Positions 1,611 to 14,272 of a stretch of 15,556 nucleotides of DNA are shown here, piece by piece. Each line of letters starts with the position of its first letter. Position 1 is the stretch's first letter. The notes under the pieces were generated by a model. That model worked only from the letters and a program-made list of their open reading frames with translations, was not told where the DNA came from and did no database searches. Location: positions 1 through 15,556 of IMG/VR virus record IMGVR_UViG_2541047911_000001. One strand, 5' to 3'. A program made the translations under genes and the position numbers. Source of the DNA: a virus. Lineage: Duplodnaviria; Heunggongvirae; Uroviricota; Caudoviricetes.

Positions 1611-2825
1611 GTGAAACTCAATGCCCGTCAAATAGACACTGCCAAGCCAAAAGAGAAGGCTTACAAGCTGGCTGATGGTGGTGGTCTGTATCTCTTGGTA
1701 AAACCTAGTGGAGGAAAATATTGGCGCTTCAAGTATCGTGTAGCTGGTAAAGAGAAGCTGTTAGCACTAGGTGTGTATCCTGAAGTTACCTTGGCTGATG
1801 CTCGTGCAAAACGTGAAGAAGCTAAAAGGGGTATCGCTGGGGGTATCGATCCGATGGAAGCGAAACGAGAGGAAAAGATTGCCCGGGAAACGCAGTTAAA
1901 CAACACCTTCAAAGATATTGCCCTTGAGTGGCACAGCAGCAAATTAAAAAAATGGTCTGCTGGTTATGCTTCAGACATCCTCGAAGCCTTCAACAAAGAT
2001 GTGTTCCCTTACATTGGCAAAAAACCAATCGCCGAAATCAAACCACTTGAACTGCTGAATGTGCTGCGGCGCATCGAGGGGCGCGGTGCTACCGAAAAAG
2101 CCAAAAAAGTGAGGCAGCGATGTGGGGAAGTTTTCCGCTATGCAATTGTCACTGGACGTGCTGAGTATAACCCTGCACCGGATCTCACCAGCGCGATGCA
2201 AGGTCATGAATCTAATCATTATCCTTTCCTCACAGCCAAAGAATTACCTGATTTTTTCAAGGCATTGTCCAGTTACTCAGGAAGTGCATTGGTTGTTATG
2301 GCGGCTCGTTTACTGATTATCACCGGTTTGCGGACTGGCGAACTGCGCGGTGCATTATGGGATGAAATCGATCTCAACAAGGCTATCTGGGAGATACCTG
2401 CTTCACGGATGAAAATGCGTCGCCCTCATGTAGTGCCTTTGTCTGAGCAGGCTCTTTCGCTTATTGGGCAGATTAAAGAACTAACTGGCAATTATCCGCT
2501 TATGTTTCCCGGCCGTAATGATCCAAGGAAAACAATGAGCGAGGCTAGCATAAACCAAGTATTTAAACGCATCGGCTATAACGGAAAGGTTACTGGTCAT
2601 GGCTTCCGGCACACTATGAGCACCATTTTGCATGAGCAGGGCTATAACACCGCGTGGATAGAGACACAGCTTGCGCACGTCGATAAAAACTCAATTCGTG
2701 GCACATACAACCATGCGCAATATCTGGATGGGCGGCGGGAAATGCTTCAGTGGTACGCTGATTATATGGATTCGCTCGAGCATGGCGGAAATGTGGTGCA
2801 TGGTGAGTTCGGAAAATGCGGGTGA
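1611..2825 (+). CDS. int: P4-type tyrosine integrase (site-specific recombinase), 404 aa, GTG start
   Basis: Starts 167 bp after the tRNA; GGAGG Shine-Dalgarno at ~1596-1600; N-terminal MKLNARQIDTAKPKEKAYKLADGGGLYLLVKP is typical of P4-family integrases; C-terminal region carries catalytic-type residues (…HGFRHT…, …LAHVD…, …RGTYNHAQY…). Confidence 0.9.
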   Translation: MKLNARQIDTAKPKEKAYKLADGGGLYLLVKPSGGKYWRFKYRVAGKEKLLALGVYPEVTLADARAKREEAKRGIAGGIDPMEAKREEKIARETQLNNTFKDIALEWHSSKLKKWSAGYASDILEAFNKDVFPYIGKKPIAEIKPLELLNVLRRIEGRGATEKAKKVRQRCGEVFRYAIVTGRAEYNPAPDLTSAMQGHESNHYPFLTAKELPDFFKALSSYSGSALVVMAARLLIITGLRTGELRGALWDEIDLNKAIWEIPASRMKMRRPHVVPLSEQALSLIGQIKELTGNYPLMFPGRNDPRKTMSEASINQVFKRIGYNGKVTGHGFRHTMSTILHEQGYNTAWIETQLAHVDKNSIRGTYNHAQYLDGRREMLQWYADYMDSLEHGGNVVHGEFGKCG

Positions 2826-2953
2826 CTGGTTGAGTATACAGTAGTAGACTTTGAGCGACGAAAGAAAAGGCTGTGTCTAGGGTCGCTCCCGAAAATCCGT
2901 ACACCTCGACGGACTGGTACAGCCACTACAGTAGAGGACGCTGAGGTGTGCGT

Positions 2954-3751
2954 ATGATTGATATTCATGCCGAATTAAACGAATACAAAAAAGATTTTAT
3001 TTCTTTACGTGAATTTCTTGAGGTCGTGCTTAAGGTCGCTGGTGATGATTATGATGTTTCAGATGTCATAACTTGGATACTCAGGAGAATAAGCGGAGAA
3101 CATATCCGCCTGTACACAGTAAATGAATTTAAGCTGTTGGAATCTTTTTGTAACCCGTATCGGGATGAATTTGATAATGATGTTCTTTATAGAAATCTGA
3201 ATGCGGTTCGGAAACGTGGTTGTTTACCTGGTGAGAGGGATGAAAATGGTTTTCTGGTGTCCGGTTATTGGGAAGATCCCGAATTTGAGAACATTGGATT
3301 TATAAGGGGTGAAATTTTCGCAATTTTTCCCGATGTCCTTGACGCGTTAACGAAGCTGGAAGGCGCTAACTCTTCTGAAAATGACGAGGCACAAGGACGC
3401 GATATTGAAAAGAAAGAGTTGCGTACAGAGGATGATTTATTATCCCAAATCGCAATGCTGGAAAAAGAAAACGCAGAGTTAAGGGCAAGGATAGAGCAGT
3501 TAGAGCAAGAGCGCCCGATACACTTATATAAATACTGGGATAAAGACCCATTAGCTAAGGCTATTGAGATTAGAAACAGAGAGTGGGCCAATTACGATCC
3601 AGAAAATGATTTTGCCACCAGGGGAAATCAAGAAGCGATAACCAGGGAGCTTAAGCAGTGGGGGGCAAGTAATGCACTTGCAACGCTCATAGAGAGGACT
3701 GCCTGCCCTATTAACCGAGACAACAGCCAAAAGAACGCAAAGCCGGATTAA
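2954..3751 (+). CDS. hypothetical protein, 265 aa, acidic with a coiled-coil/leucine-zipper-like segment; possible accessory gene
   Basis: ATG at 2954 preceded by GAGG (2944-2947); the ORF track starts it at the in-frame GTG 2948. Visibly lower GC than the flanking int. Coiled-coil-like segment LLSQIAMLEKENAELRARIEQLEQE. No family recognised. Confidence 0.6.
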   Translation: MIDIHAELNEYKKDFISLREFLEVVLKVAGDDYDVSDVITWILRRISGEHIRLYTVNEFKLLESFCNPYRDEFDNDVLYRNLNAVRKRGCLPGERDENGFLVSGYWEDPEFENIGFIRGEIFAIFPDVLDALTKLEGANSSENDEAQGRDIEKKELRTEDDLLSQIAMLEKENAELRARIEQLEQERPIHLYKYWDKDPLAKAIEIRNREWANYDPENDFATRGNQEAITRELKQWGASNALATLIERTACPINRDNSQKNAKPD

Positions 3752-3766
3752 CGCACCATACCGCAT

Positions 3767-3909
3767 ACCCTGAGGGTGATTTACTGTTACCCTGAGGGTA
3801 TTTTTTTATCTTCCCCGTCAATTTTACCATCACCCTTAGGGTAGATTTCCTCCCGATTACCATCACCCTTAGGGTAGATTTCCTTCCGGTAACCATTAGG
3901 CCTGAGGGT
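3767..3909. promoter_or_regulatory. Array of five ACCCT(G/T)AGGGT palindromes, including a perfect 25-bp direct repeat, upstream of the alpA-like gene
   Basis: ACCCTGAGGGT at 3767-3777 and 3789-3799; ACCATCACCCTTAGGGTAGATTTCC at 3826-3850 and 3859-3883 (33-bp periodicity); GCCTGAGGGT at 3899-3909. Confidence 0.55.
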
Positions 3910-3978
3910 ATGAAAATATTCGTTATTTCTGTGCCATGATTACCTCGTCAAATTGAGTAGACGTTATGAGGTAAATAT

Positions 3979-4176
3979 ATGTCAAATACGCTTATTCGTT
4001 TAACAGAAGTTCAGCGTAGAACTGGATATAGCAAGGCATGGATTTATCGCCTTATGGGGCAAGGTAAATTTCCTGCATCAGTTAAAATTGGCTCGCGAGC
4101 TATTGCTTTCGTTGAGAGTGAAATTGACGAGTGGATTAATCAGCGTATTGCGGAATCACGCGGAACAGCTACCTGA
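3979..4176 (+). CDS. alpA: AlpA-family small HTH transcriptional regulator (prophage regulatory protein / excisionase-like), 65 aa
   Basis: Translation MSNTLIRLTEVQRRTGYSKAWIYRLMGQGKFPASVKIGSRAIAFVESEIDEWINQRI matches the AlpA/Xis-type pattern; GAGG Shine-Dalgarno 7-8 nt upstream; int-proximal position typical of P4-like and PICI islands. Symbol denotes family membership only. Confidence 0.75.
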   Translation: MSNTLIRLTEVQRRTGYSKAWIYRLMGQGKFPASVKIGSRAIAFVESEIDEWINQRIAESRGTAT

Positions 4177-4253: not shown

Positions 4254-5054
4254 ATGAAATTTCCAAAAATGCCCGTACAGGGGCGGGGCTTCGTTCGGCC
4301 TGAAAACCAGAATCTGCAAAATCTCGGCGAAATTATCCCGATTATTTCCGGCGTTATTGGCGGGAGTGAAACCAATATTGTTAGTGCCAGAGCGTTACAT
4401 AAGGCGTTAGGTGTAGGGCGCGTTTTCCGTTCGTGGATCAAGGGGCGCATTGAAGAATACGGCTTCACGGAAGGCGTGGATTATGAGGTTGTTGAATATT
4501 TGAGCCGACCCGATCCGGTGAGCGCAAAATCTCGCCAGCAAACAGCTCTTGAGTACATCATCACCGTGAACATGGCGAAAGAACTGGCGATGGTCGAACG
4601 TACCGAACAGGGCCGCGCCGTTCGCCAGTACTTTATCAAATGCGAGGAGGAGCTACACAAGGTTGCGCCTGTTCGTTCCGCAGCGTTACGCCGGGAACTG
4701 AAAGCCCGTATCACAGTTGCCAGCTACTTTAAGCCAATGTGTGCCGCGCTGGAGGCGTACCGGGCTGAACTGGGTAAAAACACACTCCAGCACCACTACA
4801 CCACGGAAGCGAACATGCTGGCGCGTATCGTGCTGGGTGGCATGACTGCAAAACAGTGGGCACTGGCGAACGGCATTACAGGCGAACCACGCGACCACAT
4901 GAGCACGTTGCAGCTTGAGCACCTTTCTTACCTTGAGCAGAGCAATATCACGCTGATTGAGTTAGGCCAGGACTACCACCAGCGGAAGGCTGAATTAATT
5001 CGTCTTTCGCAGCGTTGGTTAGCCCGTCGCATGGAGGAAAACAGCCATGTGTAA
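4254..5054 (+). CDS. AntA/AntB-like phage antirepressor-domain protein, 266 aa
   Basis: CAGGAG Shine-Dalgarno before the ATG; N-terminal region (…SARALHKALGV…FRSWIKGRIEEYGFTEGVDYEV… and …TALEYIITVNMAKELAMVERTEQGRAVRQYFIKCEEEL) resembles the AntA antirepressor N-terminal domain; C-terminal half unassigned. Confidence 0.6.
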   Translation: MKFPKMPVQGRGFVRPENQNLQNLGEIIPIISGVIGGSETNIVSARALHKALGVGRVFRSWIKGRIEEYGFTEGVDYEVVEYLSRPDPVSAKSRQQTALEYIITVNMAKELAMVERTEQGRAVRQYFIKCEEELHKVAPVRSAALRRELKARITVASYFKPMCAALEAYRAELGKNTLQHHYTTEANMLARIVLGGMTAKQWALANGITGEPRDHMSTLQLEHLSYLEQSNITLIELGQDYHQRKAELIRLSQRWLARRMEENSHV

Positions 5055-6354
5055 CGCTCTGACCGTTACAAAAAGAGAAAGCGCCCCGTTGCCGGAGCGC
5101 CTTTGTGAACGAATAGCCTACTGCGCCATATTGCTTACTGTCTACGAGGCAGATTATAGCGTTGTGGTCGCACAGAGTGAAGGCGCTGATCACCGTTACT
5201 ACAGCACGCCAGAAATGCAGAATATTTTGCTGCAAAATGTCGTTGGTCACACTGTCCGGAAAGCAAAAAATTTTGCTGGTGGCGCGACTGATGCGATTTT
5301 GTCAGGTCGCCAGGTGCTGATCAATCTGATGTCTGATTTCGTTCTGGATAAAACAAAGGCGACCGCAGAGGGCCGCCAGTGGGAAAGCTACATACTTGAA
5401 CGCATCGCCAACAATGCCAGATTTGCGGCTGGTGGGCAATGTGTCAGCTTTGCACCAATGACTCTATGTTTAACTGAGGGTCATTATGGTGAATATGCTG
5501 GCTTGCTGGTGGGCTATTCCTGCTCTTTAACATTGCCATGCCGCGATGTTTTACAGGTATGCGACCCCATTTTTGTGCGCCTGTACTCTTTAAGGAATTT
5601 CTCAAGGATAAACGCACAGGGCGCGAATCTGTTTGACTCATGCTCGTACGCTATCTTTCTGCGCTGTCTTTTCCGTGCCGGTGATGGTGTATTGGTTGAT
5701 TCTTTGTTGGTCATGGCGCAGCCCTGTAAAACGATGCACCGTAGTTCCTCACACCACGGCGCTGGTGATGGTTACTCCTGTTCTTTGGCCTTGCGGCGCT
5801 GGCGGTATTCAACTTCTCGCTTTAATGCTGCTGTTACAAACTGCCCTGTACTTTCACCAGGCATTTTTACCGCCTCAACATTGTTCATAACTTCATGCGG
5901 AACCCTTGCCGCAACTGTTTGTGATTTTGCGTTTACTGCTTTTGTCGCCATGTTGTGTACCCCTTACAAAAAACAAATGCAGTATGCAGGAAAAAAAATA
6001 AGTGTTCAACACTTGACGTGTTTAACACCTGGGCTTAAATTGGTGTTCAACACCTTGTTGATGCAAGGTGCAGAAACGACAACGCCCCGCAGTGGTGGCA
6101 CACATGCAGGGCGTCTAACCACCAACGATAGCAAGAGTATCGAGGTAGCTATGAGAAATCATACCACACACCCGCAAGGGCGGGACTCGCACAACCTGAA
6201 TAAATACATCTGGCGTTTTATCGCCCTGAGCACGGCACAACCGCGCGTAATTCACATCGAGGCCACCAGCGAACAGGAAGCACGCCAGCAATCTCCTGAT
6301 GGCTGCGTGATGGTATTCGCCGCCCGTATTCGCCAGGAGGTGGAACATGTGTAA
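5047..6354 (+). CDS. Long ORF (435 codons) of doubtful integrity: plausible gene start at 5047 with a protein-like first ~140 codons; the central part is probably not coding
   Basis: Start is translationally coupled to the upstream gene (ATGTGTAA overlap, GGAGGA Shine-Dalgarno). Codons ~150-370 are Cys/Ser/Thr-rich with many rare codons (AGG, ATA, CGG, TTA) and overlap an antisense gene and an operator cluster. Only the last ~67 codons look coding again. Confidence 0.3.
   Translation: MCNALTVTKRESAPLPERLCERIAYCAILLTVYEADYSVVVAQSEGADHRYYSTPEMQNILLQNVVGHTVRKAKNFAGGATDAILSGRQVLINLMSDFVLDKTKATAEGRQWESYILERIANNARFAAGGQCVSFAPMTLCLTEGHYGEYAGLLVGYSCSLTLPCRDVLQVCDPIFVRLYSLRNFSRINAQGANLFDSCSYAIFLRCLFRAGDGVLVDSLLVMAQPCKTMHRSSSHHGAGDGYSCSLALRRWRYSTSRFNAAVTNCPVLSPGIFTASTLFITSCGTLAATVCDFAFTAFVAMLCTPYKKQMQYAGKKISVQHLTCLTPGLKLVFNTLLMQGAETTTPRSGGTHAGRLTTNDSKSIEVAMRNHTTHPQGRDSHNLNKYIWRFIALSTAQPRVIHIEATSEQEARQQSPDGCVMVFAARIRQEVEHV
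5772..5951 (-). CDS. Ribbon-helix-helix-like small DNA-binding protein (59 aa), candidate repressor, antisense to the long ORF
   Basis: Minus-strand ATG at 5951, stop TAA at 5774-5772; translation MATKAVNAKSQTVAARVPHEVMNNVEAVKMPGESTGQFVTAALKREVEYRQRRKAKEQE has a strand-helix-helix pattern and host-like codons; AAGGGG Shine-Dalgarno upstream; divergent from the operator cluster at 6002-6053. Below the 60-aa cutoff of the ORF track. Confidence 0.5.
   Translation of the reverse strand: MATKAVNAKSQTVAARVPHEVMNNVEAVKMPGESTGQFVTAALKREVEYRQRRKAKEQE
6002..6053. promoter_or_regulatory. Three 11-bp palindromic operator-like sites GTGTT-N-AACAC overlapping a rightward promoter-like TTGACG-17-TAAATT
   Basis: GTGTTCAACAC at 6002-6012 and 6043-6053, GTGTTTAACAC at 6018-6028; -35-like TTGACG 6013-6018 and -10-like TAAATT 6036-6041. 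Confidence 0.55.
6151..6354 (+). CDS. small hypothetical protein (67 aa); likely the real first gene of the rightward operon (3' end of the long ORF)
   Basis: ATG at 6151 with GAGG 5-8 nt upstream, about 100 bp downstream of the operator/promoter cluster; ends …IRQEVEHV with an ATGTGTAA overlap into the next gene. Confidence 0.4.
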   Translation: MRNHTTHPQGRDSHNLNKYIWRFIALSTAQPRVIHIEATSEQEARQQSPDGCVMVFAARIRQEVEHV

Positions 6355-7352: not shown

Positions 7353-7643
7353 ATGAAAAAGAAAAATTCTGGCTTTACTGCCAGCGGCCTCTCTCGGCCT
7401 GAAATCCGCCCCGGTGATATTTTCCGGGACACCAGACGCGGGGGACGGGTGGTTATTCGTCACGTTACGCCAGGCAATATCACCTACCGCCGTGAGGCTT
7501 ACGAATATGACTGCGTAATGCCGCGCCGTCAGTTTGATCGTGATTTTATTGTGGTGGAAAACAAACAACAGGCAGTGGCGAGACGTGCAGCCACGAATAT
7601 TAAAAAAATCCGGGCAATGTTGGTTGCGGGAGGTAAGAAGTGA
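7353..7643 (+). CDS. small basic hypothetical protein, 96 aa
   Basis: AGGAAA Shine-Dalgarno; Arg/Lys-rich; stop overlaps the GTG start of the replication gene. Confidence 0.5.
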   Translation: MKKKNSGFTASGLSRPEIRPGDIFRDTRRGGRVVIRHVTPGNITYRREAYEYDCVMPRRQFDRDFIVVENKQQAVARRAATNIKKIRAMLVAGGKK

Positions 7644-9445
7644 AAAACGCACCGAGTCTAAAATATCAGCCGAAGGATAAATTCACTGAGGTAATCATTT
7701 TTGCCGGGATGGATGCTTACGCCCATGCTCAACACTGGATTGAAAGTGAAGGACGAAAACACGGCGATAACGTGCCTCCTGTTTACCTGGGACCAAAGCA
7801 ACTGGCAGACCTGGCGAATATCCGCATTATTGACGAGAAACGCCGTTTTGCGCGTGTCTATATCGCGGGGGAGATAGAGCCAATCCAGATCAATACTATC
7901 GCTGAAAAGCTGGCGCTGGCTGGCGTACAGGAGGCGAAATTATACAAAGGTATCACCGACCAGGAACCGGAGAACTGGCGCGACTACCTGCAACGGATCC
8001 GCGAACAGGCTGAGCACGGGGAAGTTTCAGTGATGAAATTAGCTACAAAAAATAGTGGTCTACCCAAGCCTGCATTAAATCAGATGGGAGCCAGCCAGAG
8101 AGGGGAAGTGTTACTTGAACATTATGGAGGAGCACTGGCGATAAATGATGATTCTGATGTAGTTCACCATTACAACGGAATTGTTTGGGAGCCTGTATCT
8201 GATAAGGAACTCCAGCGGTCTATGGCGAAGATTTTTATTGATGCCGAAATTAGTTATTCGCAAAACGCCATTAAATTTGCCGTAGAGACAATGAAATTGA
8301 GTCTACCTGTTATGGGGGGAGCGGACAGAAATCTTATTGGGTTCAGTAACGGTGTTTTTGATATCAGGACAGGAAATTTTCGGGAACACAACAAAAATGA
8401 CTGGTTGTTAAATGCCAGTGAATTACCGTTCAGCCCGCCAGAAGAGGGGGAAACGCTGGCAACACATGCGCCGAATTTCTGGAAGTGGTTGCGTCGTTCG
8501 GTGGCGGATAATGCTCGTAAAGCGGATCGCGTACTGGCGGCATTATTCATGGTACTGGCGAACCGGTACGACTGGCAGTTATTCCTTGAGGTAACGGGGC
8601 CGGGCGGAAGCGGTAAAAGTGTGATGGCGGAGATTTGTACCATGCTGGCGGGTAAGGCCAATACAGTATCGGCGAGCATGAAGGCGCTGGAAGACGCGAG
8701 GGAACGAGCGTTAGTGGTGGGATATTCTCTGATTATCATGCCTGACATGACCCGCTACGCAGGTGATGGTGCTGGGATTAAGGCCATTACAGGCGGTGAC
8801 AAGGTGGCTATCGATCCGAAACACAAAGCGCCCTATTCCACGCGCGTTCCTGCGGTAGTGCTGGCAGTAAACAATTATGCCATGTCATTCAGCGACCGTA
8901 GTGGGGGGATCTCGCGTCGACGAGTAATATTTAATTTCTCTGAGGTTGTACCAGAGAACGAACGCGATCCGATGCTGGCGAAAAAGATAGAAGGGGAACT
9001 GGCAGTAGTGATTCGCCATTTGCTTACACGATTTGCCGACCAGGACGAAGCGAAAAGACTACTTTATGAGCAGCAAAAATCAGAAGAAGCACTGTTGATA
9101 AAGCGTGAAGGTGATTCGCTGGTGGACTTCTGCGGTTATCTGATGTCGTTGGTTAAATGTGAGGGAATGATAGTAGGTAATGCAGAAATAGTGCCATTTA
9201 GTCCGAGGCGATATCTGTATCATGCTTATTTGGCTTATATGTCTGCGCATGGTCTGGGAAAACCGGTATCACTGACACGCTTTGGTACAGATATGCCAGG
9301 GGCAATGGCTGAGTACGGAAAGGAGTACAAGCGGGCTAAATGCACTAAAGGTCCAGATAAAGGGCGAACGATCACAAATGTTCTGTTAGATAAAGATGCT
9401 GATGGATGGTTACCAGCAACGGCAGGCATTAACGACAGAACATGA
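7640..9445 (+). CDS. P4-family primase/helicase-type replication protein (P-loop NTPase, SF3-helicase-like), 601 aa, GTG start
   Basis: Walker A GPGGSGKS and a downstream hydrophobic-run-plus-Asp Walker B candidate (…LIIMPD…) are visible; size, position (followed by iterons) and architecture match P4 alpha C-terminal or PICI pri-rep proteins; no obvious zinc-binding primase motif. Confidence 0.8.
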   Translation: MKNAPSLKYQPKDKFTEVIIFAGMDAYAHAQHWIESEGRKHGDNVPPVYLGPKQLADLANIRIIDEKRRFARVYIAGEIEPIQINTIAEKLALAGVQEAKLYKGITDQEPENWRDYLQRIREQAEHGEVSVMKLATKNSGLPKPALNQMGASQRGEVLLEHYGGALAINDDSDVVHHYNGIVWEPVSDKELQRSMAKIFIDAEISYSQNAIKFAVETMKLSLPVMGGADRNLIGFSNGVFDIRTGNFREHNKNDWLLNASELPFSPPEEGETLATHAPNFWKWLRRSVADNARKADRVLAALFMVLANRYDWQLFLEVTGPGGSGKSVMAEICTMLAGKANTVSASMKALEDARERALVVGYSLIIMPDMTRYAGDGAGIKAITGGDKVAIDPKHKAPYSTRVPAVVLAVNNYAMSFSDRSGGISRRRVIFNFSEVVPENERDPMLAKKIEGELAVVIRHLLTRFADQDEAKRLLYEQQKSEEALLIKREGDSLVDFCGYLMSLVKCEGMIVGNAEIVPFSPRRYLYHAYLAYMSAHGLGKPVSLTRFGTDMPGAMAEYGKEYKRAKCTKGPDKGRTITNVLLDKDADGWLPATAGINDRT

Positions 9446-9814: not shown

Positions 9815-10357
9815 ATGGGGCAAAGCATGACTAAGCTGACCATTAACAGAAAACCGAAAGGCATTTACGGCACGCCGCAGAAAACGACGCAGGCGGCGCA
9901 GGAGCAGGATAAAACCACATCGGCGCATAAAGTGATGCCCGGTAACCAGAAAGCGCAGCAAAAGCCCACAGGGGCGACACCGTGGCGGCATATGACCAAA
10001 CGCCAGCGCAAAAACCGCAGGCGCGTTAACCGCCTCACTGAGTTGTGGCCTGACTTATTCAGCCGGGAAGCACCGAAGCCGCTTAAGGTGGGGATATTCG
10101 ACGACCTGATGCAGGATCTCGCCGTCAGGGGGCTGGCATTCGGGCCAGGGGCATTGCGTGCGACGCTGGCATCTTATGCGCAGTGTCCGCACTATTACCG
10201 CGCCTTAATGGCTGGTGGGGTACGCTACGACCTGAAAGGCCAGCCGTGCGGCGAGGTGACACCACAGGAACAACAGGACGCAGAAACGCGGCTGGTGGCG
10301 CTGAATGAGAAGCGCAAACGCCAGCGCCGGGCAGCAAAGGAGACAATAGGCGCATGA
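9815..10357 (+). CDS. ProQ/FinO-domain RNA-binding protein with a basic N-terminal extension, 180 aa
   Basis: Residues …LWPDLFSREAPKPLKVGIFDDLM…LRATLASYAQCPHYYRALMAGGVRYDLKGQPCGEVTPQEQQDAETRLVALNEKRKR align by eye with the E. coli ProQ N-terminal FinO-like domain (…RPLKIGIFQDLV…[35 protein letters not shown]…); an alternative start at ATG 9827 is possible. Confidence 0.75.
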   Translation: MGQSMTKLTINRKPKGIYGTPQKTTQAAQEQDKTTSAHKVMPGNQKAQQKPTGATPWRHMTKRQRKNRRRVNRLTELWPDLFSREAPKPLKVGIFDDLMQDLAVRGLAFGPGALRATLASYAQCPHYYRALMAGGVRYDLKGQPCGEVTPQEQQDAETRLVALNEKRKRQRRAAKETIGA

Positions 10358-10641
10358 TTCACGACAGCAAAGCGGAAGCACTGGAAGCGCGTGGTCTGTA
10401 CCGGAGAGCGGCGGCGCGGTGGGCTGAGGTCATCATGCTGGCGAATGATGACAAGGCACGGGAACAGGCGGCAAAACGTCGCGCGGAATGTATCCACAAG
10501 GCAGCACGCCCACCAGCAAAGCAGGATAATTTCGGGGAGATGCGCGAAACCATCAGCCGGGCACATGCCGGAATGGGATTACATCAGCCCAATGGTAAGG
10601 CATTCAGGAAATATCCTGGATCGAAAAATTGCAGTCAGTGA
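10354..10641 (+). CDS. PerC-family-like small transcriptional activator candidate, 95 aa
   Basis: Start overlaps the upstream stop; N-terminal MIHDSKAEALEARGLYRRAAARWAEV resembles, from memory, the conserved start of PerC/Pch-type proteins of prophage-like elements; tentative. Confidence 0.45.
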   Translation: MIHDSKAEALEARGLYRRAAARWAEVIMLANDDKAREQAAKRRAECIHKAARPPAKQDNFGEMRETISRAHAGMGLHQPNGKAFRKYPGSKNCSQ

Positions 10642-11188: not shown

Positions 11189-11287
11189 ATCAGTAAGGGG
11201 CGGTTATTGCCCCTTTCCTCCATACCCACAACGCATTCCCTTTCCGCATGAAATTATTTTTTATCGTATACGCATGAGGTGAGCTAC

Positions 11288-11815
11288 ATGTTGATGAGTA
11301 AAGCCGAATACGCCAAATACAAAGGCGTAAGCCGCCAGACAGTTTACGACTGGATCGAGAAAGGCGAAGTGATCATGTCTGGCAAAAAAATTGATGTGGA
11401 GGCGACAGAGCAGCGGAACAGCCCACCGGCACAAGGGAAAGACACCGTTTCTGAAATGTGGCCAGAAAGAACGCTGGAAATGACGTGGGGCGAGTTCTGG
11501 AAAGCAGTTAAGGCCAGAGACGGTAAAATTCCTTCGCCAGTAACGGACGATGACATACAGCAGCGTGTGCTGTATGCAGCCGGGGAATTAGGCTGGGAAG
11601 TGCACTTTCTTGATGATGGTGCTATCTGCCTTGAGGATGATGAAGGGCAGCATTACTTTGAAAAATACAATTTGCGAGGTAATGCCAGGCTGGCAATTCG
11701 TATGCTGCGTTGCGAACTCTGCTATGTTGCAGGTGATTATCCCGATGAACTGGAATCATGGAGTGAAACCGGGCTAAACGCCCTGGCTGAATGGGAAAAA
11801 TCAGACCATCAATGA
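11288..11815 (+). CDS. HTH-domain protein, 176 aa; candidate small-terminase-like / packaging-redirecting DNA-binding protein
   Basis: ATG at 11288 with GAGGTG Shine-Dalgarno 9 nt upstream (track uses GTG 11279); N-terminus MLMSKAEYAKYKGVSRQTVYDWIEKGEV is a winged-HTH pattern like the lambda Nu1 N-terminus and the AlpA/MerR class; followed immediately by a repeat array. Confidence 0.55.
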   Translation: MLMSKAEYAKYKGVSRQTVYDWIEKGEVIMSGKKIDVEATEQRNSPPAQGKDTVSEMWPERTLEMTWGEFWKAVKARDGKIPSPVTDDDIQQRVLYAAGELGWEVHFLDDGAICLEDDEGQHYFEKYNLRGNARLAIRMLRCELCYVAGDYPDELESWSETGLNALAEWEKSDHQ

Positions 11816-12673: not shown

Positions 12674-14272
12674 ATGAGCGTGGCAATAAAAACAATGACA
12701 CCAATGTCATATTCTATAAAAGTTGATGCGATTAAGAAAAGATTGTCATATTTTAGTGATGTTTCTTTTTTGAGAAATTTTTATGAACACTTCCAAAAAG
12801 TAAGGGATGTCGAGGTGGGTATTGTTTCCAATTTCCCTTGGTGTTGCTATCTGGCAATGAAATGGAAGTTTTGCATGAAGGAAAAAAAGCCTGCAAAAGA
12901 AATGAGTAAAAATGATTTTATTGATATTATCAACTTAATCTATAACTTGCAACTAGAAGCATCTAATTTAATCGTTGATGATAAAGTTATGCTAAGCCTT
13001 AGACGAATGGTGATAAATCAGTTGCTTTATCAATCAACTGATAAATTTAATGCTAATTCATTAACAAGACAGTATATTTGGTATTGCTTGAATGATGAAT
13101 CATATTATAAAGATAAGTTTTTAGAATGTACTGGTTTACATTTGGAAAGCTATTACAAAATGGCATGTTATTTTACTGCTATTTCATGTATTAATCCTGA
13201 TGTAGAATCAGAGGTTATTCCATTTAAACACTTGATAATAAACTTGGTTCCGATATTTGGTCCGGAACAAGTGAAAAAATTTTTGGAATTAACATGCTTA
13301 AAAATTGATGGTGTAAGAGATTTTATTGCCCCATATAAATTGGATAAAAACATTACCGCTGAGTATTATGAAGATACACCATTCCTCAGTAAACCAATGT
13401 TTTTAGATGGCGATGGTGTAGTGATATTATGCAAAAGAATCATGAAGTCAGGGTTTGTCAACCTAGTTCCAGAATTGTTCAAGCAGGTCTATAAGGAATC
13501 TTATAAAGAAAAATTTGGTAAGACGATGGAACTTTATATTTCTCGCTTTCTTGATAAGTACAATTATAACTTTAAGACTGAAAGGGAGGTTAAGAAGATT
13601 TATAGTGATAATGCAATAAAAAATTGCAAGTCCGTAGATTTTGTTATTTCAGAGGGAGATTCAATAGTTTATATTGACTCGAAGGCAATAGAGCCTGCAA
13701 AGTTCGTTAAAACATCTAATAATGCTCAGTTGCTAAAGGAAAGGTTGAATAAGAGTTTTATTAAAGGGATTTATCAAGGTCAGGAATGTGCTTTTAACTT
13801 AAATAAAATAGAGATGAGAAAACCATCTTCGAAAGATTCAATGTTAATTGTGGTGCATCGGGATCATCATATATCAAATGCAATGGTTGTGCAGGATTTT
13901 ATTAACCCTGATTTATCAACTGAGTTATCTGAAAAATATCATAGTACCCCCATTGATCTAAAAAGAATTTACTATATAACAATTGATGAGTTCGAATTAT
14001 TACTTATGATGTGTAAACAGAAAGAACTATCTATTAATGAGTTTATTGATATGTGTGTGGAAAAAGATTCATTCCCTCATACTCAGAAGTCTAATCTAAG
14101 CATGCACATATATGAATTTGCACCAGAGGGTATTGATGATGATCAATTGATTGTAAAAGGAAGAGACTTACTGATTGATGATGTTATTGAAAATATGAAA
14201 GAGAGTGCATCAAAATGGTCTGGGAAAGTTGATATGTATCTTAAAATAAAAGATTATATTTTTAATTGGTAA
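12674..14272 (+). CDS. AT-rich orphan protein of unknown function, 532 aa; candidate anti-phage defence / abortive-infection effector with a possible PD-(D/E)xK-like core
   Basis: Long uninterrupted ORF with a composition very different from the rest of the island; AAAAGG Shine-Dalgarno 8 nt before the ATG; AT-rich promoter-like leader; perfect hairpin downstream; last gene before attR. Confidence 0.8.
   Translation: MSVAIKTMTPMSYSIKVDAIKKRLSYFSDVSFLRNFYEHFQKVRDVEVGIVSNFPWCCYLAMKWKFCMKEKKPAKEMSKNDFIDIINLIYNLQLEASNLIVDDKVMLSLRRMVINQLLYQSTDKFNANSLTRQYIWYCLNDESYYKDKFLECTGLHLESYYKMACYFTAISCINPDVESEVIPFKHLIINLVPIFGPEQVKKFLELTCLKIDGVRDFIAPYKLDKNITAEYYEDTPFLSKPMFLDGDGVVILCKRIMKSGFVNLVPELFKQVYKESYKEKFGKTMELYISRFLDKYNYNFKTEREVKKIYSDNAIKNCKSVDFVISEGDSIVYIDSKAIEPAKFVKTSNNAQLLKERLNKSFIKGIYQGQECAFNLNKIEMRKPSSKDSMLIVVHRDHHISNAMVVQDFINPDLSTELSEKYHSTPIDLKRIYYITIDEFELLLMMCKQKELSINEFIDMCVEKDSFPHTQKSNLSMHIYEFAPEGIDDDQLIVKGRDLLIDDVIENMKESASKWSGKVDMYLKIKDYIFNW

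What the first reader, a model, noticed from the sequence alone, without database searches (positions are those of the whole stretch)
2954..3751. Low-GC unknown gene wedged between int and alpA: possible second accessory locus
The int-alpA interval holds a 265-aa acidic protein with a heptad-like coiled-coil segment (LLSQIAMLEKENAELRARIEQLEQE). Its composition is visibly more AT-rich than int, and I cannot assign it to any family. The int-proximal slot in P4-like islands is variable between elements, so this may be exchangeable cargo such as a defence, anti-defence or interference factor, rather than part of the conserved machinery.
Basis: inference. Interest (0 to 1): 0.5.

Follow-up and report, generated by a model that had tools for sequence, protein, structure and literature searches.

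The report
Swappable regulator gene upstream of alpA
The unknown gene is real. It belongs to a small uncharacterised family that always sits just upstream of alpA, the master switch of phage-parasitic islands, together with its own array of DNA binding sites, so it is more likely an exchangeable control module for waking the island than a defence cargo gene.

Summary
ORF 2954-3751 encodes a 265-aa acidic protein (pI 4.7) with a four-heptad leucine zipper. It is more AT-rich than int and matches no Pfam, NCBIfam, PHROGs or PADLOC family and no solved fold.

The island is a Gram-negative PICI at thrW, not P4 proper. The protein is modular: a variable N-terminal part, a zipper, and a conserved 70-aa C-terminal domain (CTD). 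The CTD defines about 116 clusters in Enterobacterales- and Pasteurellaceae-type elements.

- All 7 members looked up, and 42 of 44 IMG/VR loci, lie directly upstream of alpA. This includes capsid-forming islands where int is elsewhere.
- The spacer to alpA carries 3-7 helically phased ACCCTnAGGGT palindromes.
- Among islands with near-identical AlpA, the palindromes occur only with this CTD. Other occupants of the slot (16 sequence clusters) bring other repeats.
- N-terminal modules can be swapped while CTD, sites and alpA stay together.
- A known structured RNA (Rfam int-alpA, 2870-2937) is the conserved leader abutting the slot gene's start codon.

Best reading (about 0.45): a dimeric DNA-binding gatekeeper of the alpA promoter whose exchangeable N-terminal domain senses the helper phage. 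"Defence cargo" is not supported but not excluded.

The parts
2870..2937 (+). Structured RNA leader (Rfam RF02996, 'int-alpA RNA'). It ends 17 nt before the ORF's ATG, and the conserved purine-rich tail runs on to 2953.
   Evidence: Rfam hit of 45.5 bits against a gathering score of 35.8. My own covariance model R1 finds the element in 66 of 90 related loci, always on the gene strand. Where ORF starts were compared, its 3' end abuts the slot gene's start codon whatever family that gene belongs to. Covariation: 97.9% of cells paired, 9 of 13 pairs with compensatory changes, slid controls at most 54%.
2954..3751 (+). The finding's ORF, called X here (265 aa). N-terminal variable domain aa 1-138 (2954-3367), disordered acidic linker aa 139-158, leucine zipper aa 159-186 (3428-3511), conserved C-terminal 4-helix domain aa 187-256 (3512-3721), short tail.
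   Evidence: variable N-terminal part, conserved C-terminal part; full model: N-terminal domain pLDDT about 88, linker below 50; C-terminal domain model pLDDT 87; the domain is always at the extreme C-terminus.
3767..3909 (.). Array of five 11-bp palindromes ACCCTnAGGGT at 3767-3777, 3789-3799, 3832-3842, 3865-3875 and a degenerate GGCCTGAGGGT at 3899-3909. Centre-to-centre spacing is 22, 43, 33 and 34 bp. Read as operator sites.
   Evidence: Four exact CCCTNAGGG matches against 0.10 expected, all in this spacer. The same motif appears in 30 of 42 related spacers that follow a gene with this C-terminal domain, and in only 1 of 29 that do not; that one is a frameshifted X. Spacings cluster at 2, 3, 4 and 5 helical turns: R = 0.74-0.77 at 10.5 bp against a null 95th percentile of 0.25.
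3979..4176 (+). alpA, the AlpA-family regulator (65 aa) and the presumed regulated target.
   Evidence: Pfam PF05930 E = 2.4e-19 and HTH_17. AlpA is the helper-induced, self-activating master activator of Gram-negative PICIs (PMC6092414, PMC11773190).
2928..4020 (+). Extent of the exchangeable cassette relative to a sister thrW island (L140): tail of the leader, ORF X, the operator array, and the first 42 nt of alpA.
   Evidence: blastn of the window against L140 gives 97.3% identity over 1-2927, nothing over 2928-4020, and similarity again from 4021. Against L002 only 2975-3523 (N-terminal domain plus zipper) is replaced. Against L138 similarity resumes at 3958.
1611..2825 (+). Tyrosine integrase of the island (context: left neighbour of the module), next to tRNA-Thr(CGU) at 1369-1444.
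   Evidence: Pfam Arm-DNA-bind_3, Phage_int_M and Phage_integrase; tRNA.

Best explanation
ORF X is the protein half of a two-part control cassette for the island's master activator gene alpA.

The proposed mechanism:
1. Two X chains pair through the four-heptad leucine zipper (aa 159-186).
2. This places two copies of the conserved C-terminal 4-helix domain side by side.
3. These bind the 11-bp palindromes ACCCTnAGGGT, which lie in helical register between the X stop codon and alpA.
4. Cooperative occupancy of the array keeps the alpA promoter shut while the island is quiescent.
5. The variable, acidic N-terminal domain is the input. A protein made by a suitable helper phage binds it and releases X from the DNA.
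6. AlpA then amplifies its own expression and starts excision and replication.

X itself is translated from a conserved structured leader, the int-alpA RNA.

Shown here: the modular architecture, the strict gene order X then alpA, the phased palindromes, and the co-inheritance of palindrome type with the C-terminal domain while AlpA and the N-terminal domain vary independently.

Inferred: that the C-terminal domain contacts the DNA, the sign of regulation (repression preferred over activation), and that the N-terminal domain senses a phage protein.
For: (1) Architecture. The N-terminal 150 aa vary, L169/L176/L183 are invariant, and the C-terminal 70 aa are highly conserved. That domain lies within 0-14 residues of the C-terminus in nearly all full-length hits, in proteins of about 150-515 aa.

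(2) Linkage to alpA, not int. All 7 diverse members looked up are directly upstream of alpA. This includes capsid-forming-type islands with int at the far end. In IMG/VR, 42 of 44 loci have alpA within about 260 bp downstream.

(3) Sites. 33 of 45 distinct spacers hold at least one perfect 11-bp palindrome, against about 0.2 expected. 61 of 76 such palindromes are ACCCTnAGGGT. There are 3-7 sites per spacer, with spacings of 22-23, 32-34, 42-44 and 54-55 bp.

(4) The sites follow X, not AlpA.
- Within AlpA at least 77% identical, the contingency table is 30 / 12 / 1 / 28.
- L138 has AlpA 97% identical but a different slot gene and no ACCCT sites.
- L016 has AlpA only 51% identical but an X-type C-terminal domain and five ACCCTnAGGGT sites.

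(5) The sites follow the C-terminal domain, not the N-terminal domain.
- The same N-terminal modules occur with other C-terminal domains and other repeats.
- The window and L002 differ only in the N-terminal domain plus zipper and share C-terminal domain, sites and alpA.
- A divergent subfamily of the domain (hhalign probability 97.5%) carries different palindromes, of TAGTGcCCACTA type.

(6) Other slot occupants each have their own repeats, for example 2x ACCGCAATTGCGGT and 2x TTGCATGCAA.

(7) Biological need. No repressor or inducer is known for Gram-negative PICIs, yet alpA is switched on specifically by helper phages (PMC6092414, PMC11773190, 10.1101/2022.09.08.507074).
Against: - The protein is very acidic (pI 4.7, net -19), and the C-terminal domain is only neutral. 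This fits a protein-binding factor or DNA mimic at least as well as a repressor.
- The palindrome changes to ACTATnATAGT in low-GC hosts with no obvious matching change in the domain.
- 12 of 45 spacers have no perfect palindrome.
- EcCICFT073 is helper-inducible without any gene in this slot (PMC6092414). X therefore cannot be the universal mechanism.
- No sigma-70-like promoter could be placed, so overlap of sites with the alpA promoter is unproven.
- The loci compared are related, so the counts are not independent events.
- PICIs are reported to carry immune genes at their 5' end (PMC11364771).
Confidence: 0.45

Rival explanations
1. Accessory cargo in a 5' hotspot. X is an immune, anti-defence or helper-interference protein that happens to occupy a recombination hotspot. 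The hotspot is bounded by two conserved sequences, the int-alpA leader RNA and the alpA leader. The repeats are cassette-specific promoter or terminator elements, or sites for some other factor.
For: - The slot is hypervariable, with sharp boundaries at conserved flanks. This resembles the defence hotspots of P4/P2 and the PICI 5' accessory region mentioned in PMC11364771.
- X is acidic, has a coiled coil and has no DNA-binding signature, like many small binder or interference proteins.
- The N-terminal half has the lowest GC.
- The island already carries one defence gene, GapS1.
- Some palindromes are followed by T-runs, which is terminator-like.
Against: - No PADLOC match and no homologue in phage genomes.
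- There is no enzymatic or membrane domain.
- The family stays glued to alpA even where that position is not the island's 5' end.
- Multiple helically phased palindromes are not what a terminator or promoter needs.
- The palindromes are co-inherited with the C-terminal domain across hosts in which AlpA has diverged to 22-51% identity.
- N-terminal swapping with a fixed C-terminal domain plus sites is the pattern expected of a sensor-regulator.
Confidence: 0.25
2. Positive regulator. X binds the same palindromes but acts as a helper-responsive activator or architectural factor. It recruits RNA polymerase or AlpA to a weak alpA promoter rather than blocking it.
For: - No recognisable sigma-70 promoter lies upstream of alpA, as expected for an activator-dependent promoter.
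- Most sites lie well upstream of alpA (centres 74 to 206 bp before the ATG) and on one face of the helix, which is typical of upstream activator arrays.
- alpA needs a helper-dependent ON signal (PMC6092414).
Against: - AlpA already activates its own promoter in islands without X (PMC6092414).
- The first site begins only about 15 bp after the X stop codon, and the array spans about 140 bp. That looks more like blanket occupancy than a discrete activator site.
- No data here decide the sign of regulation.
Confidence: 0.15
3. Protein-protein adaptor or anti-activator. The conserved C-terminal domain binds a conserved island or host protein (AlpA, integrase, RNA polymerase). The variable N-terminal domain binds phage proteins. 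The palindromes are bound by something else.
For: - Strong acidity, a zipper and no DNA-binding fold.
- Strict adjacency to alpA, which would fit a stoichiometric partner.
- In L139 and L140 the first 14 codons of alpA are exchanged together with the cassette.
Against: - AlpA varies from 22 to 100% identity among loci that keep the C-terminal domain and its sites.
- L138 keeps the same AlpA with another slot protein.
- It leaves the tight association between domain and palindrome unexplained.
Confidence: 0.1

Closest known systems
Stl / Rpr master repressors of SaPIs and other Gram-positive PICIs
   Same: Island-encoded and placed next to the gene or genes that start the island's cycle. The proposed logic is the same: a DNA-binding module holds the island silent, and a variable module is bound by a helper-phage protein, so different alleles respond to different helpers (background from PMC6092414). 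Like Stl, the family shows allele-to-allele divergence in the presumed sensor part.
   Different: No sequence or fold relationship, and no HTH_3-type domain. X is transcribed in the same direction as its presumed target rather than divergently. The conserved (presumed DNA-binding) domain is C-terminal and follows a leucine zipper. Nothing has been shown experimentally, and the prototype Gram-negative PICI EcCICFT073 lacks it.
PICI 5'-end accessory region and P4/P2 defence hotspots
   Same: A variable position bounded by conserved sequence and filled by many unrelated genes in otherwise similar elements (PMC11364771 states that PICIs encode immune systems at their 5' or 3' ends).
   Different: X matches no known defence model. 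Each occupant brings its own repeated DNA sites into the alpA upstream region. The family also follows alpA when alpA is not at the 5' end. The recognisable defence gene of this island, GapS1, is at the 3' end.
Bro-N / KilA-N / AntA domain-swapping network of phage and satellite regulators
   Same: Extensive shuffling of N- and C-terminal modules among proteins encoded next to alpA in Gram-negative PICIs (PMC10111431 describes this for the zone downstream of alpA). I see the same behaviour upstream of alpA.
   Different: No Bro-N, KilA-N, AntA or ANT domain is detected in X. The position is upstream of alpA, inside what PMC10111431 calls the integration zone. The C-terminal domain is a separate, undescribed family.
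Rfam RF02996 int-alpA RNA (listed by Rfam as an sRNA)
   Same: The element at 2870-2937 scores above the family's gathering threshold and shows the family's structure.
   Different: In these loci it is not free-standing. Its 3' end abuts the start codon of the slot gene, whatever that gene is, and it occurs without an upstream int in capsid-forming-type islands. This fits a cis-acting 5' leader better than a trans-acting sRNA.
bZIP / leucine-zipper transcription factors (a few RefSeq records label this protein 'bZIP transcription factor')
   Same: A four-heptad zipper with Leu at d positions and an Asn at a central a position. Such an Asn is the classical signature of parallel dimeric zippers; that point is my own knowledge.
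   Different: There is no basic region. The segment before the zipper is acidic (linker pI 4.7). Pfam bZIP_2 scores 15.1 bits against a cut-off of 22.3. The conserved domain follows the zipper rather than preceding it.

Membership tests
Gram-negative PICI (the host element) | Integrase at one end next to a tRNA or att site, transcribed inward | tested here: met
   tRNA-Thr(CGU) at 1369-1444, then int at 1611-2825 on the + strand.
Gram-negative PICI (the host element) | AlpA-family regulator downstream of int in the same orientation, followed by a Bro/AntA zone and a D5_N/DUF5906 primase | tested here: met
   PF05930 at 3979-4176, AntA at 4254-5054, D5_N/DUF5906/Pox_D5 at 7640-9445. This matches the four-zone layout of PMC10111431.
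Gram-negative PICI (the host element) | Induction, excision and packaging dependent on a helper phage | not testable with these tools
   Requires experiments.
P4-like satellite | psu, delta and sid capsid-hijacking genes | tested here: not met
   None is annotated in a related island sharing this int-alpA segment in RefSeq, or under the best window matches. The Pfam scan of the larger window ORFs found none. Not every small ORF was scanned.
Stl/Rpr-type satellite master repressor | Recognisable HTH DNA-binding domain | tested here: not met
Stl/Rpr-type satellite master repressor | Divergent transcription from the genes it controls | tested here: not met
   X and alpA are co-directional in every locus examined.
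Stl/Rpr-type satellite master repressor | Binds operators in front of the island's activation genes and is released by a helper-phage protein | not testable with these tools
   Only indirect support: phased palindromes that are co-inherited with the C-terminal domain.
Known anti-phage defence systems (PADLOC-DB 2.0) | Match to a defence protein model | tested here: not met
   0 families at E <= 1.
bZIP transcription factor | Basic DNA-contact region immediately N-terminal to the zipper, and a score above the Pfam threshold | tested here: not met
   The linker before the zipper is acidic. bZIP_2 scores 15.1 bits against a cut-off of 22.3.
X C-terminal domain family (defined here) | 70-aa domain at the extreme C-terminus with the W...A..(I/V)E.VACP(I/F).R signature, preceded by a coiled coil | tested here: met
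   The window protein scores E = 4e-38 against the domain HMM.
Rfam RF02996 int-alpA RNA (leader at 2870-2937) | Score at or above the gathering threshold, and base pairs supported by covariation | tested here: met
   45.5 bits against 35.8. 97.9% of cells paired and 9 of 13 pairs with compensatory changes.

The most novel reading that the evidence does not exclude
X and the unrelated proteins that replace it in the same slot are the missing helper-sensing master regulators of many Gram-negative PICIs and capsid-forming PICIs, making them functional analogues of Stl. Each is a cassette made of a sensor domain, a dimerisation helix, a DNA-binding domain and the matching operators, placed between a conserved structured leader RNA and alpA. 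Swapping the whole cassette, or only its N-terminal sensor, re-tunes which helper phage can wake the island. The C-terminal domain would then be a new DNA-binding fold, and the int-alpA 'sRNA' would be the cis-acting leader that controls the regulator's synthesis.
Probability: 0.3. Interest if true: 0.85.

Novelty: new variant of a known kind. Interest (0 to 1): 0.62.

Why it matters
How helper phages switch on alpA has been open since Gram-negative PICIs were described in 2018. No repressor or inducer had been identified in the papers I could read (PMC6092414, PMC11773190, 10.1101/2022.09.08.507074).

If this reading is right, it gives a concrete and testable candidate: a protein, its operators, and natural domain-swap alleles that predict helper specificity. 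It would also explain why the int-alpA interval is so variable, and it would define a new small DNA-binding domain. It would reassign a catalogued 'sRNA' (RF02996) as the leader of these genes.

There are practical uses too. The allele studied is in about 2.6% of complete E. coli genomes, including O104:H4 2011C-3493. PICIs move virulence and defence genes such as the GapS1 carried here, so knowing what triggers them matters for predicting their spread and for engineering PICI-based tools.

If instead it is a defence or interference factor, it is a new one with no detectable relatives among known systems.

Tried and rejected
- Family scans of X, its halves and 106 relatives against Pfam, PHROGs, NCBIfam and PADLOC gave only coiled-coil noise.
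- PDB sequence searches with the protein and two domain profiles found nothing.
- tblastn against 50,697 phage records gave no match.
- Both genome-contig scans were wasted. The protein-pattern scan confirmed nothing.
- I considered that AlpA binds the palindromes. I rejected this because a 97%-identical AlpA occurs with other repeats and a 51%-identical AlpA occurs with the same repeats.
- I considered that the palindromes are integrase arm sites. I rejected this because they lie more than 2 kb from attL and persist where int is at the other end of the island.
- I considered that they are simple terminators. This is unlikely because there are 3-7 helically phased copies, most without a T-run.
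- I considered that the N-terminal domain is the DNA-binding part, since residues 15-64 are predicted as strand-helix-helix-strand-strand. This is disfavoured because the repeat type follows the C-terminal domain when modules are shuffled.
- EcCIMP1_002, the int-alpA gene of a studied PICI, is a much smaller, unrelated ORF.
- The Cell 2022 paper on PICI immune systems could not be read.
- An SD-covering hairpin in the alpA leader is not energetically distinctive (z = -0.63).
Full report
**What is in the window.** The window runs proA (1-1254), tRNA-Thr(CGU) (1369-1444), a tyrosine integrase (1611-2825), the ORF in question (2954-3751), a 227-bp spacer, and alpA (3979-4176). It continues with an AntA-domain gene (4254-5054), small genes, a D5_N/DUF5906 primase (7640-9445), ProQ/FinO, PerC and a 30%-GC gene (12674-14272) that is a GapS1 anti-phage protein. 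This is the four-zone layout of Gram-negative phage-inducible chromosomal islands (PICIs) described in PMC10111431 and PMC6092414. It is not a P4 proper: no psu, delta or sid is annotated in related RefSeq islands.

**The observation.**
- The ORF is 265 aa from the ATG at 2954, and all homologues begin MIDI/MVDI.
- It is acidic, with pI 4.7 and net charge about -19.
- The quoted heptad segment is aa 162-186. L162, L169, L176 and L183 sit at d positions, and I166, N173 and I180 at a positions.
- GC is 41.5% against 47.7% for int. The N-terminal half is 38.9% and the C-terminal third 44.8%.
- Pfam, PHROGs, NCBIfam and PADLOC give nothing beyond sub-threshold coiled-coil matches.
- RefSeq calls it 'hypothetical protein', and occasionally 'bZIP transcription factor' or 'coiled-coil domain-containing protein'.

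**A modular protein family.** Only 43 clusters in a 5.8-billion-protein collection resemble it. They come from E. coli, Salmonella, Citrobacter, Yersinia and metagenomes. The alignment shows a variable N-terminal 150 residues, an invariant Leu heptad, and a highly conserved last 70 residues: ERPI..DPL..AIEIRNREWANYDP..TRGNQ.AI..EL....A..IE.VACPI.R.

A profile of that C-terminal domain (CTD) finds 116 representative clusters among 1.84 billion. The domain lies within 0-14 residues of the C-terminus in nearly all full-length hits, in proteins of about 150-515 aa with diverse, unannotated N-terminal parts. Named sources add Klebsiella, Photorhabdus, Morganella, Providencia and Pasteurellaceae.

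**The family belongs to alpA, not to int.** Seven divergent members were looked up in public assemblies, and all lie immediately upstream of an AlpA gene. In L011/L012 the order is capsid, portal, terminase, then X, alpA and primase, with the integrase on the opposite strand at the far end. That is a capsid-forming-PICI-like layout, so the constant neighbour is alpA. Of 44 IMG/VR loci that encode the CTD, 42 have an AlpA homologue on the same strand within about 260 bp downstream.

**Phased palindromes in the spacer.**
- The window spacer holds ACCCTGAGGGT twice, ACCCTTAGGGT twice and a degenerate fifth copy. Four exact CCCTNAGGG matches compare with 0.10 expected, and there are none elsewhere in the window.
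- Across 45 distinct X-to-alpA spacers, 33 have at least one perfect 11-bp palindrome, against about 0.2 expected. Of 76 palindromes, 61 are ACCCTnAGGGT and 6 are ACTATnATAGT; the latter occur in low-GC hosts.
- Allowing two mismatches, there are 3-7 sites per spacer. Neighbouring centres are 22-23, 32-34, 42-44 or 54-55 bp apart, which is 2 to 5 helical turns. The resultant length is 0.74-0.77 at 10.5 bp, against a null 95th percentile of 0.25.

This is the geometry of a cooperative protein-binding array, not of a terminator or a single promoter element.

**Whose sites are they?** Three comparisons point to X, and within X to the CTD.

First, holding AlpA nearly constant. In 71 distinct IMG/VR regions with AlpA at least 77% identical to the window's, ACCCTnAGGGT is present in 30 of 42 where the upstream gene has the CTD. 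It is present in 1 of 29 where it does not, and that one is a frameshifted X. E. coli 08-00022 (L138) has AlpA 97% identical, but another slot protein and other repeats. Conversely, L016 has AlpA only 51% identical but an X-type CTD and five ACCCTnAGGGT copies. EcCICFT073, which has no gene between int and alpA, has no such palindromes.

Second, module shuffling. The N-terminal or middle modules of some X proteins recur in slot proteins that have a different C-terminal domain and different repeats.

Third, precise replacement boundaries.
- The window and L002 are alike except for 2975-3523, which is the N-terminal domain plus zipper. CTD, sites and alpA stay together.
- The window and its thrW sister island L140 are 97% identical up to 2927 and again from 4021. 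Everything between is replaced by a different coiled-coil protein followed by two ACCGCAATTGCGGT palindromes.
- A divergent CTD subfamily (...AVNLILRP...GRR; hhalign probability 97.5%, E = 6e-12) goes with yet another palindrome, of TAGTGcCCACTA type.

**A hypervariable cassette slot.** Within this narrow AlpA clade, the gene upstream of alpA falls into 16 sequence clusters. Several have obvious repeats of their own, such as 2x TTGCATGCAA, ACTTCCA direct repeats, and an inverted TGACATGACA. What varies, though, is a protein together with DNA sites in the alpA upstream region.

**A conserved RNA leader.** Rfam's int-alpA RNA (RF02996) matches 2870-2937, ending 17 nt before the ATG. A covariance model built from seven instances finds it in 66 of 90 related loci. 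Where ORF starts were compared, its 3' end falls at the start codon of the slot gene whichever family that gene belongs to, and it is also present where no int lies upstream. The structure is strongly supported: 97.9% of cells paired, 9 of 13 pairs with compensatory changes, slid controls at most 54%. It therefore behaves as a cis leader of the slot gene and marks the left edge of the cassette. Rfam lists it as an sRNA.

**Mechanism proposed.** X dimerises through the zipper. From my own knowledge, an Asn at a central a position is typical of parallel dimers. The paired CTDs read the palindromes, and cooperative binding along one face of the DNA gates the alpA promoter. The exchangeable N-terminal domain receives the helper-phage signal.

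I prefer repression because AlpA activates itself and over-expression triggers uncontrolled replication (PMC6092414), so a quiescent island needs a lock. The array also runs from just after the X stop codon towards the alpA leader.

The steps are not equally supported. Architecture, synteny, phasing and co-inheritance are shown. DNA binding by the CTD, the sign of regulation and the nature of the input are inferred.

**Against this reading.**
- The protein has no detectable DNA-binding fold and is very acidic.
- The change from ACCCT to ACTAT has no clear counterpart in the CTD.
- A quarter of the spacers lack perfect palindromes.
- EcCICFT073 is helper-inducible without such a gene (PMC6092414), so the mechanism cannot be universal.
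- PICIs are reported to carry immune systems at their 5' end (PMC11364771).
- The loci are related, so the counts overstate independence.

I put the regulator model at about 0.45, accessory cargo at 0.25, an activator variant at 0.15 and a protein adaptor at 0.10.

**Comparison with what is known.** In logic it resembles the Stl/Rpr repressors of Gram-positive PICIs, but it fails the membership tests: no HTH, and co-directional rather than divergent transcription. It shares domain-swapping behaviour with the Bro-N/AntA network but has none of its domains. It is not a bZIP, because it has no basic region and scores below the Pfam threshold. It matches no defence model. In the literature I could search, no repressor or inducer is known for Gram-negative PICIs and this gene family is not mentioned. 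The one studied int-alpA gene, EcCIMP1_002, is a small unrelated ORF.

**Verdict.** This is a real gene from an uncharacterised family in a truly exchangeable position. The comparative evidence says it is a regulatory cassette coupled to alpA rather than free cargo. This allele is in 141-148 of 5,426 complete E. coli genomes, always chromosomal, including O104:H4 2011C-3493. Simple EMSA and reporter experiments would settle the question.

Noticed in passing
window 2870-2937 (+); also L002 5917-5984, L005 5918-5985, L011 5915-5980, L017 1889-1954, L140 3441-3509: The Rfam int-alpA RNA (RF02996, listed as an sRNA) sits directly in front of the slot gene's start codon in 66 of 90 related loci, whatever gene follows and even without an upstream int. 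It looks like a cis-acting 5' leader and marks the left boundary of the exchangeable cassette. Covariation strongly supports the fold.
   Followed up: yes
window 12674-14272 (+): A 532-aa gene at about 30% GC is a GapS1 anti-phage protein (NCBIfam NF047931, E = 2e-132, above cut-off). It lies at the 3' end of the island. Related islands carry other genes there.
   Followed up: partly
L140 4282-4395; L214, L251, L216, L246, L219 upstream of alpA: Other proteins occupying the same slot each bring their own repeats: 2x ACCGCAATTGCGGT, 2x TTGCATGCAA, ACTTCCA direct repeats, and an inverted TGACATGACA. Several of these proteins also have a coiled coil and a small conserved C-terminal domain, which suggests analogous regulator cassettes.
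   Followed up: partly
window 3979-4020 compared with L139 and L140: In two sister islands the first 14 codons of alpA (MSNTLIRLTEVQRR against MSQSLIRMPETMRR) are exchanged together with the upstream cassette. In L138 the junction lies 21 nt before the alpA ATG.
   Followed up: partly
window 3943-3971: An inverted repeat CCTCGTCA...TTATGAGG covers the alpA Shine-Dalgarno sequence, and a similar CTCGTAA...TTACGAG is conserved across different cassettes. The predicted hairpin is no more stable than shuffled sequence (z = -0.63).
   Followed up: partly
L007 730-818, 1589-1677, 2426-2511: In a low-GC metagenomic island, weak copies of the leader-like RNA (27-33 bits) recur three times. Each precedes a small gene pair (a 67-aa Endonuclea_NS_2 protein plus a 126-aa protein) before the X gene, like a short array of cassettes.
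   Followed up: no
window 5047-6354 (+): A 435-aa ORF with odd composition spans a stretch where RefSeq annotates only small genes in sister islands (YlcI/YnfO on the minus strand, Icd-like). It is probably not a real gene. The C4/isrK immunity RNAs found in L005, L011 and L012 are not detected in the window at gathering threshold.
   Followed up: no
window 11279-11815 (+): A 178-aa protein has a weak excisionase/HTH_17-like N-terminus (Pfam E = 1.4e-4, TIGR01764 E = 2e-4, both below cut-off). It recalls the second 'alpA_1' gene of EcCIMP1.
   Followed up: no
window 9815-10641 (+): ProQ/FinO-domain and PerC-family genes follow the primase. A PerC homologue on another E. coli PICI was reported to repress LEE expression (PMC11773190).
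   Followed up: no
L018-L097 (genome-contig scan): Closely spaced pairs of ACCCTnAGGGT are abundant in Chloroflexota, Roizmanbacteria and some Bacteroidota MAGs, sometimes in long regular arrays (for example L070 and L038). They are presumably an unrelated repeat family.
   Followed up: no
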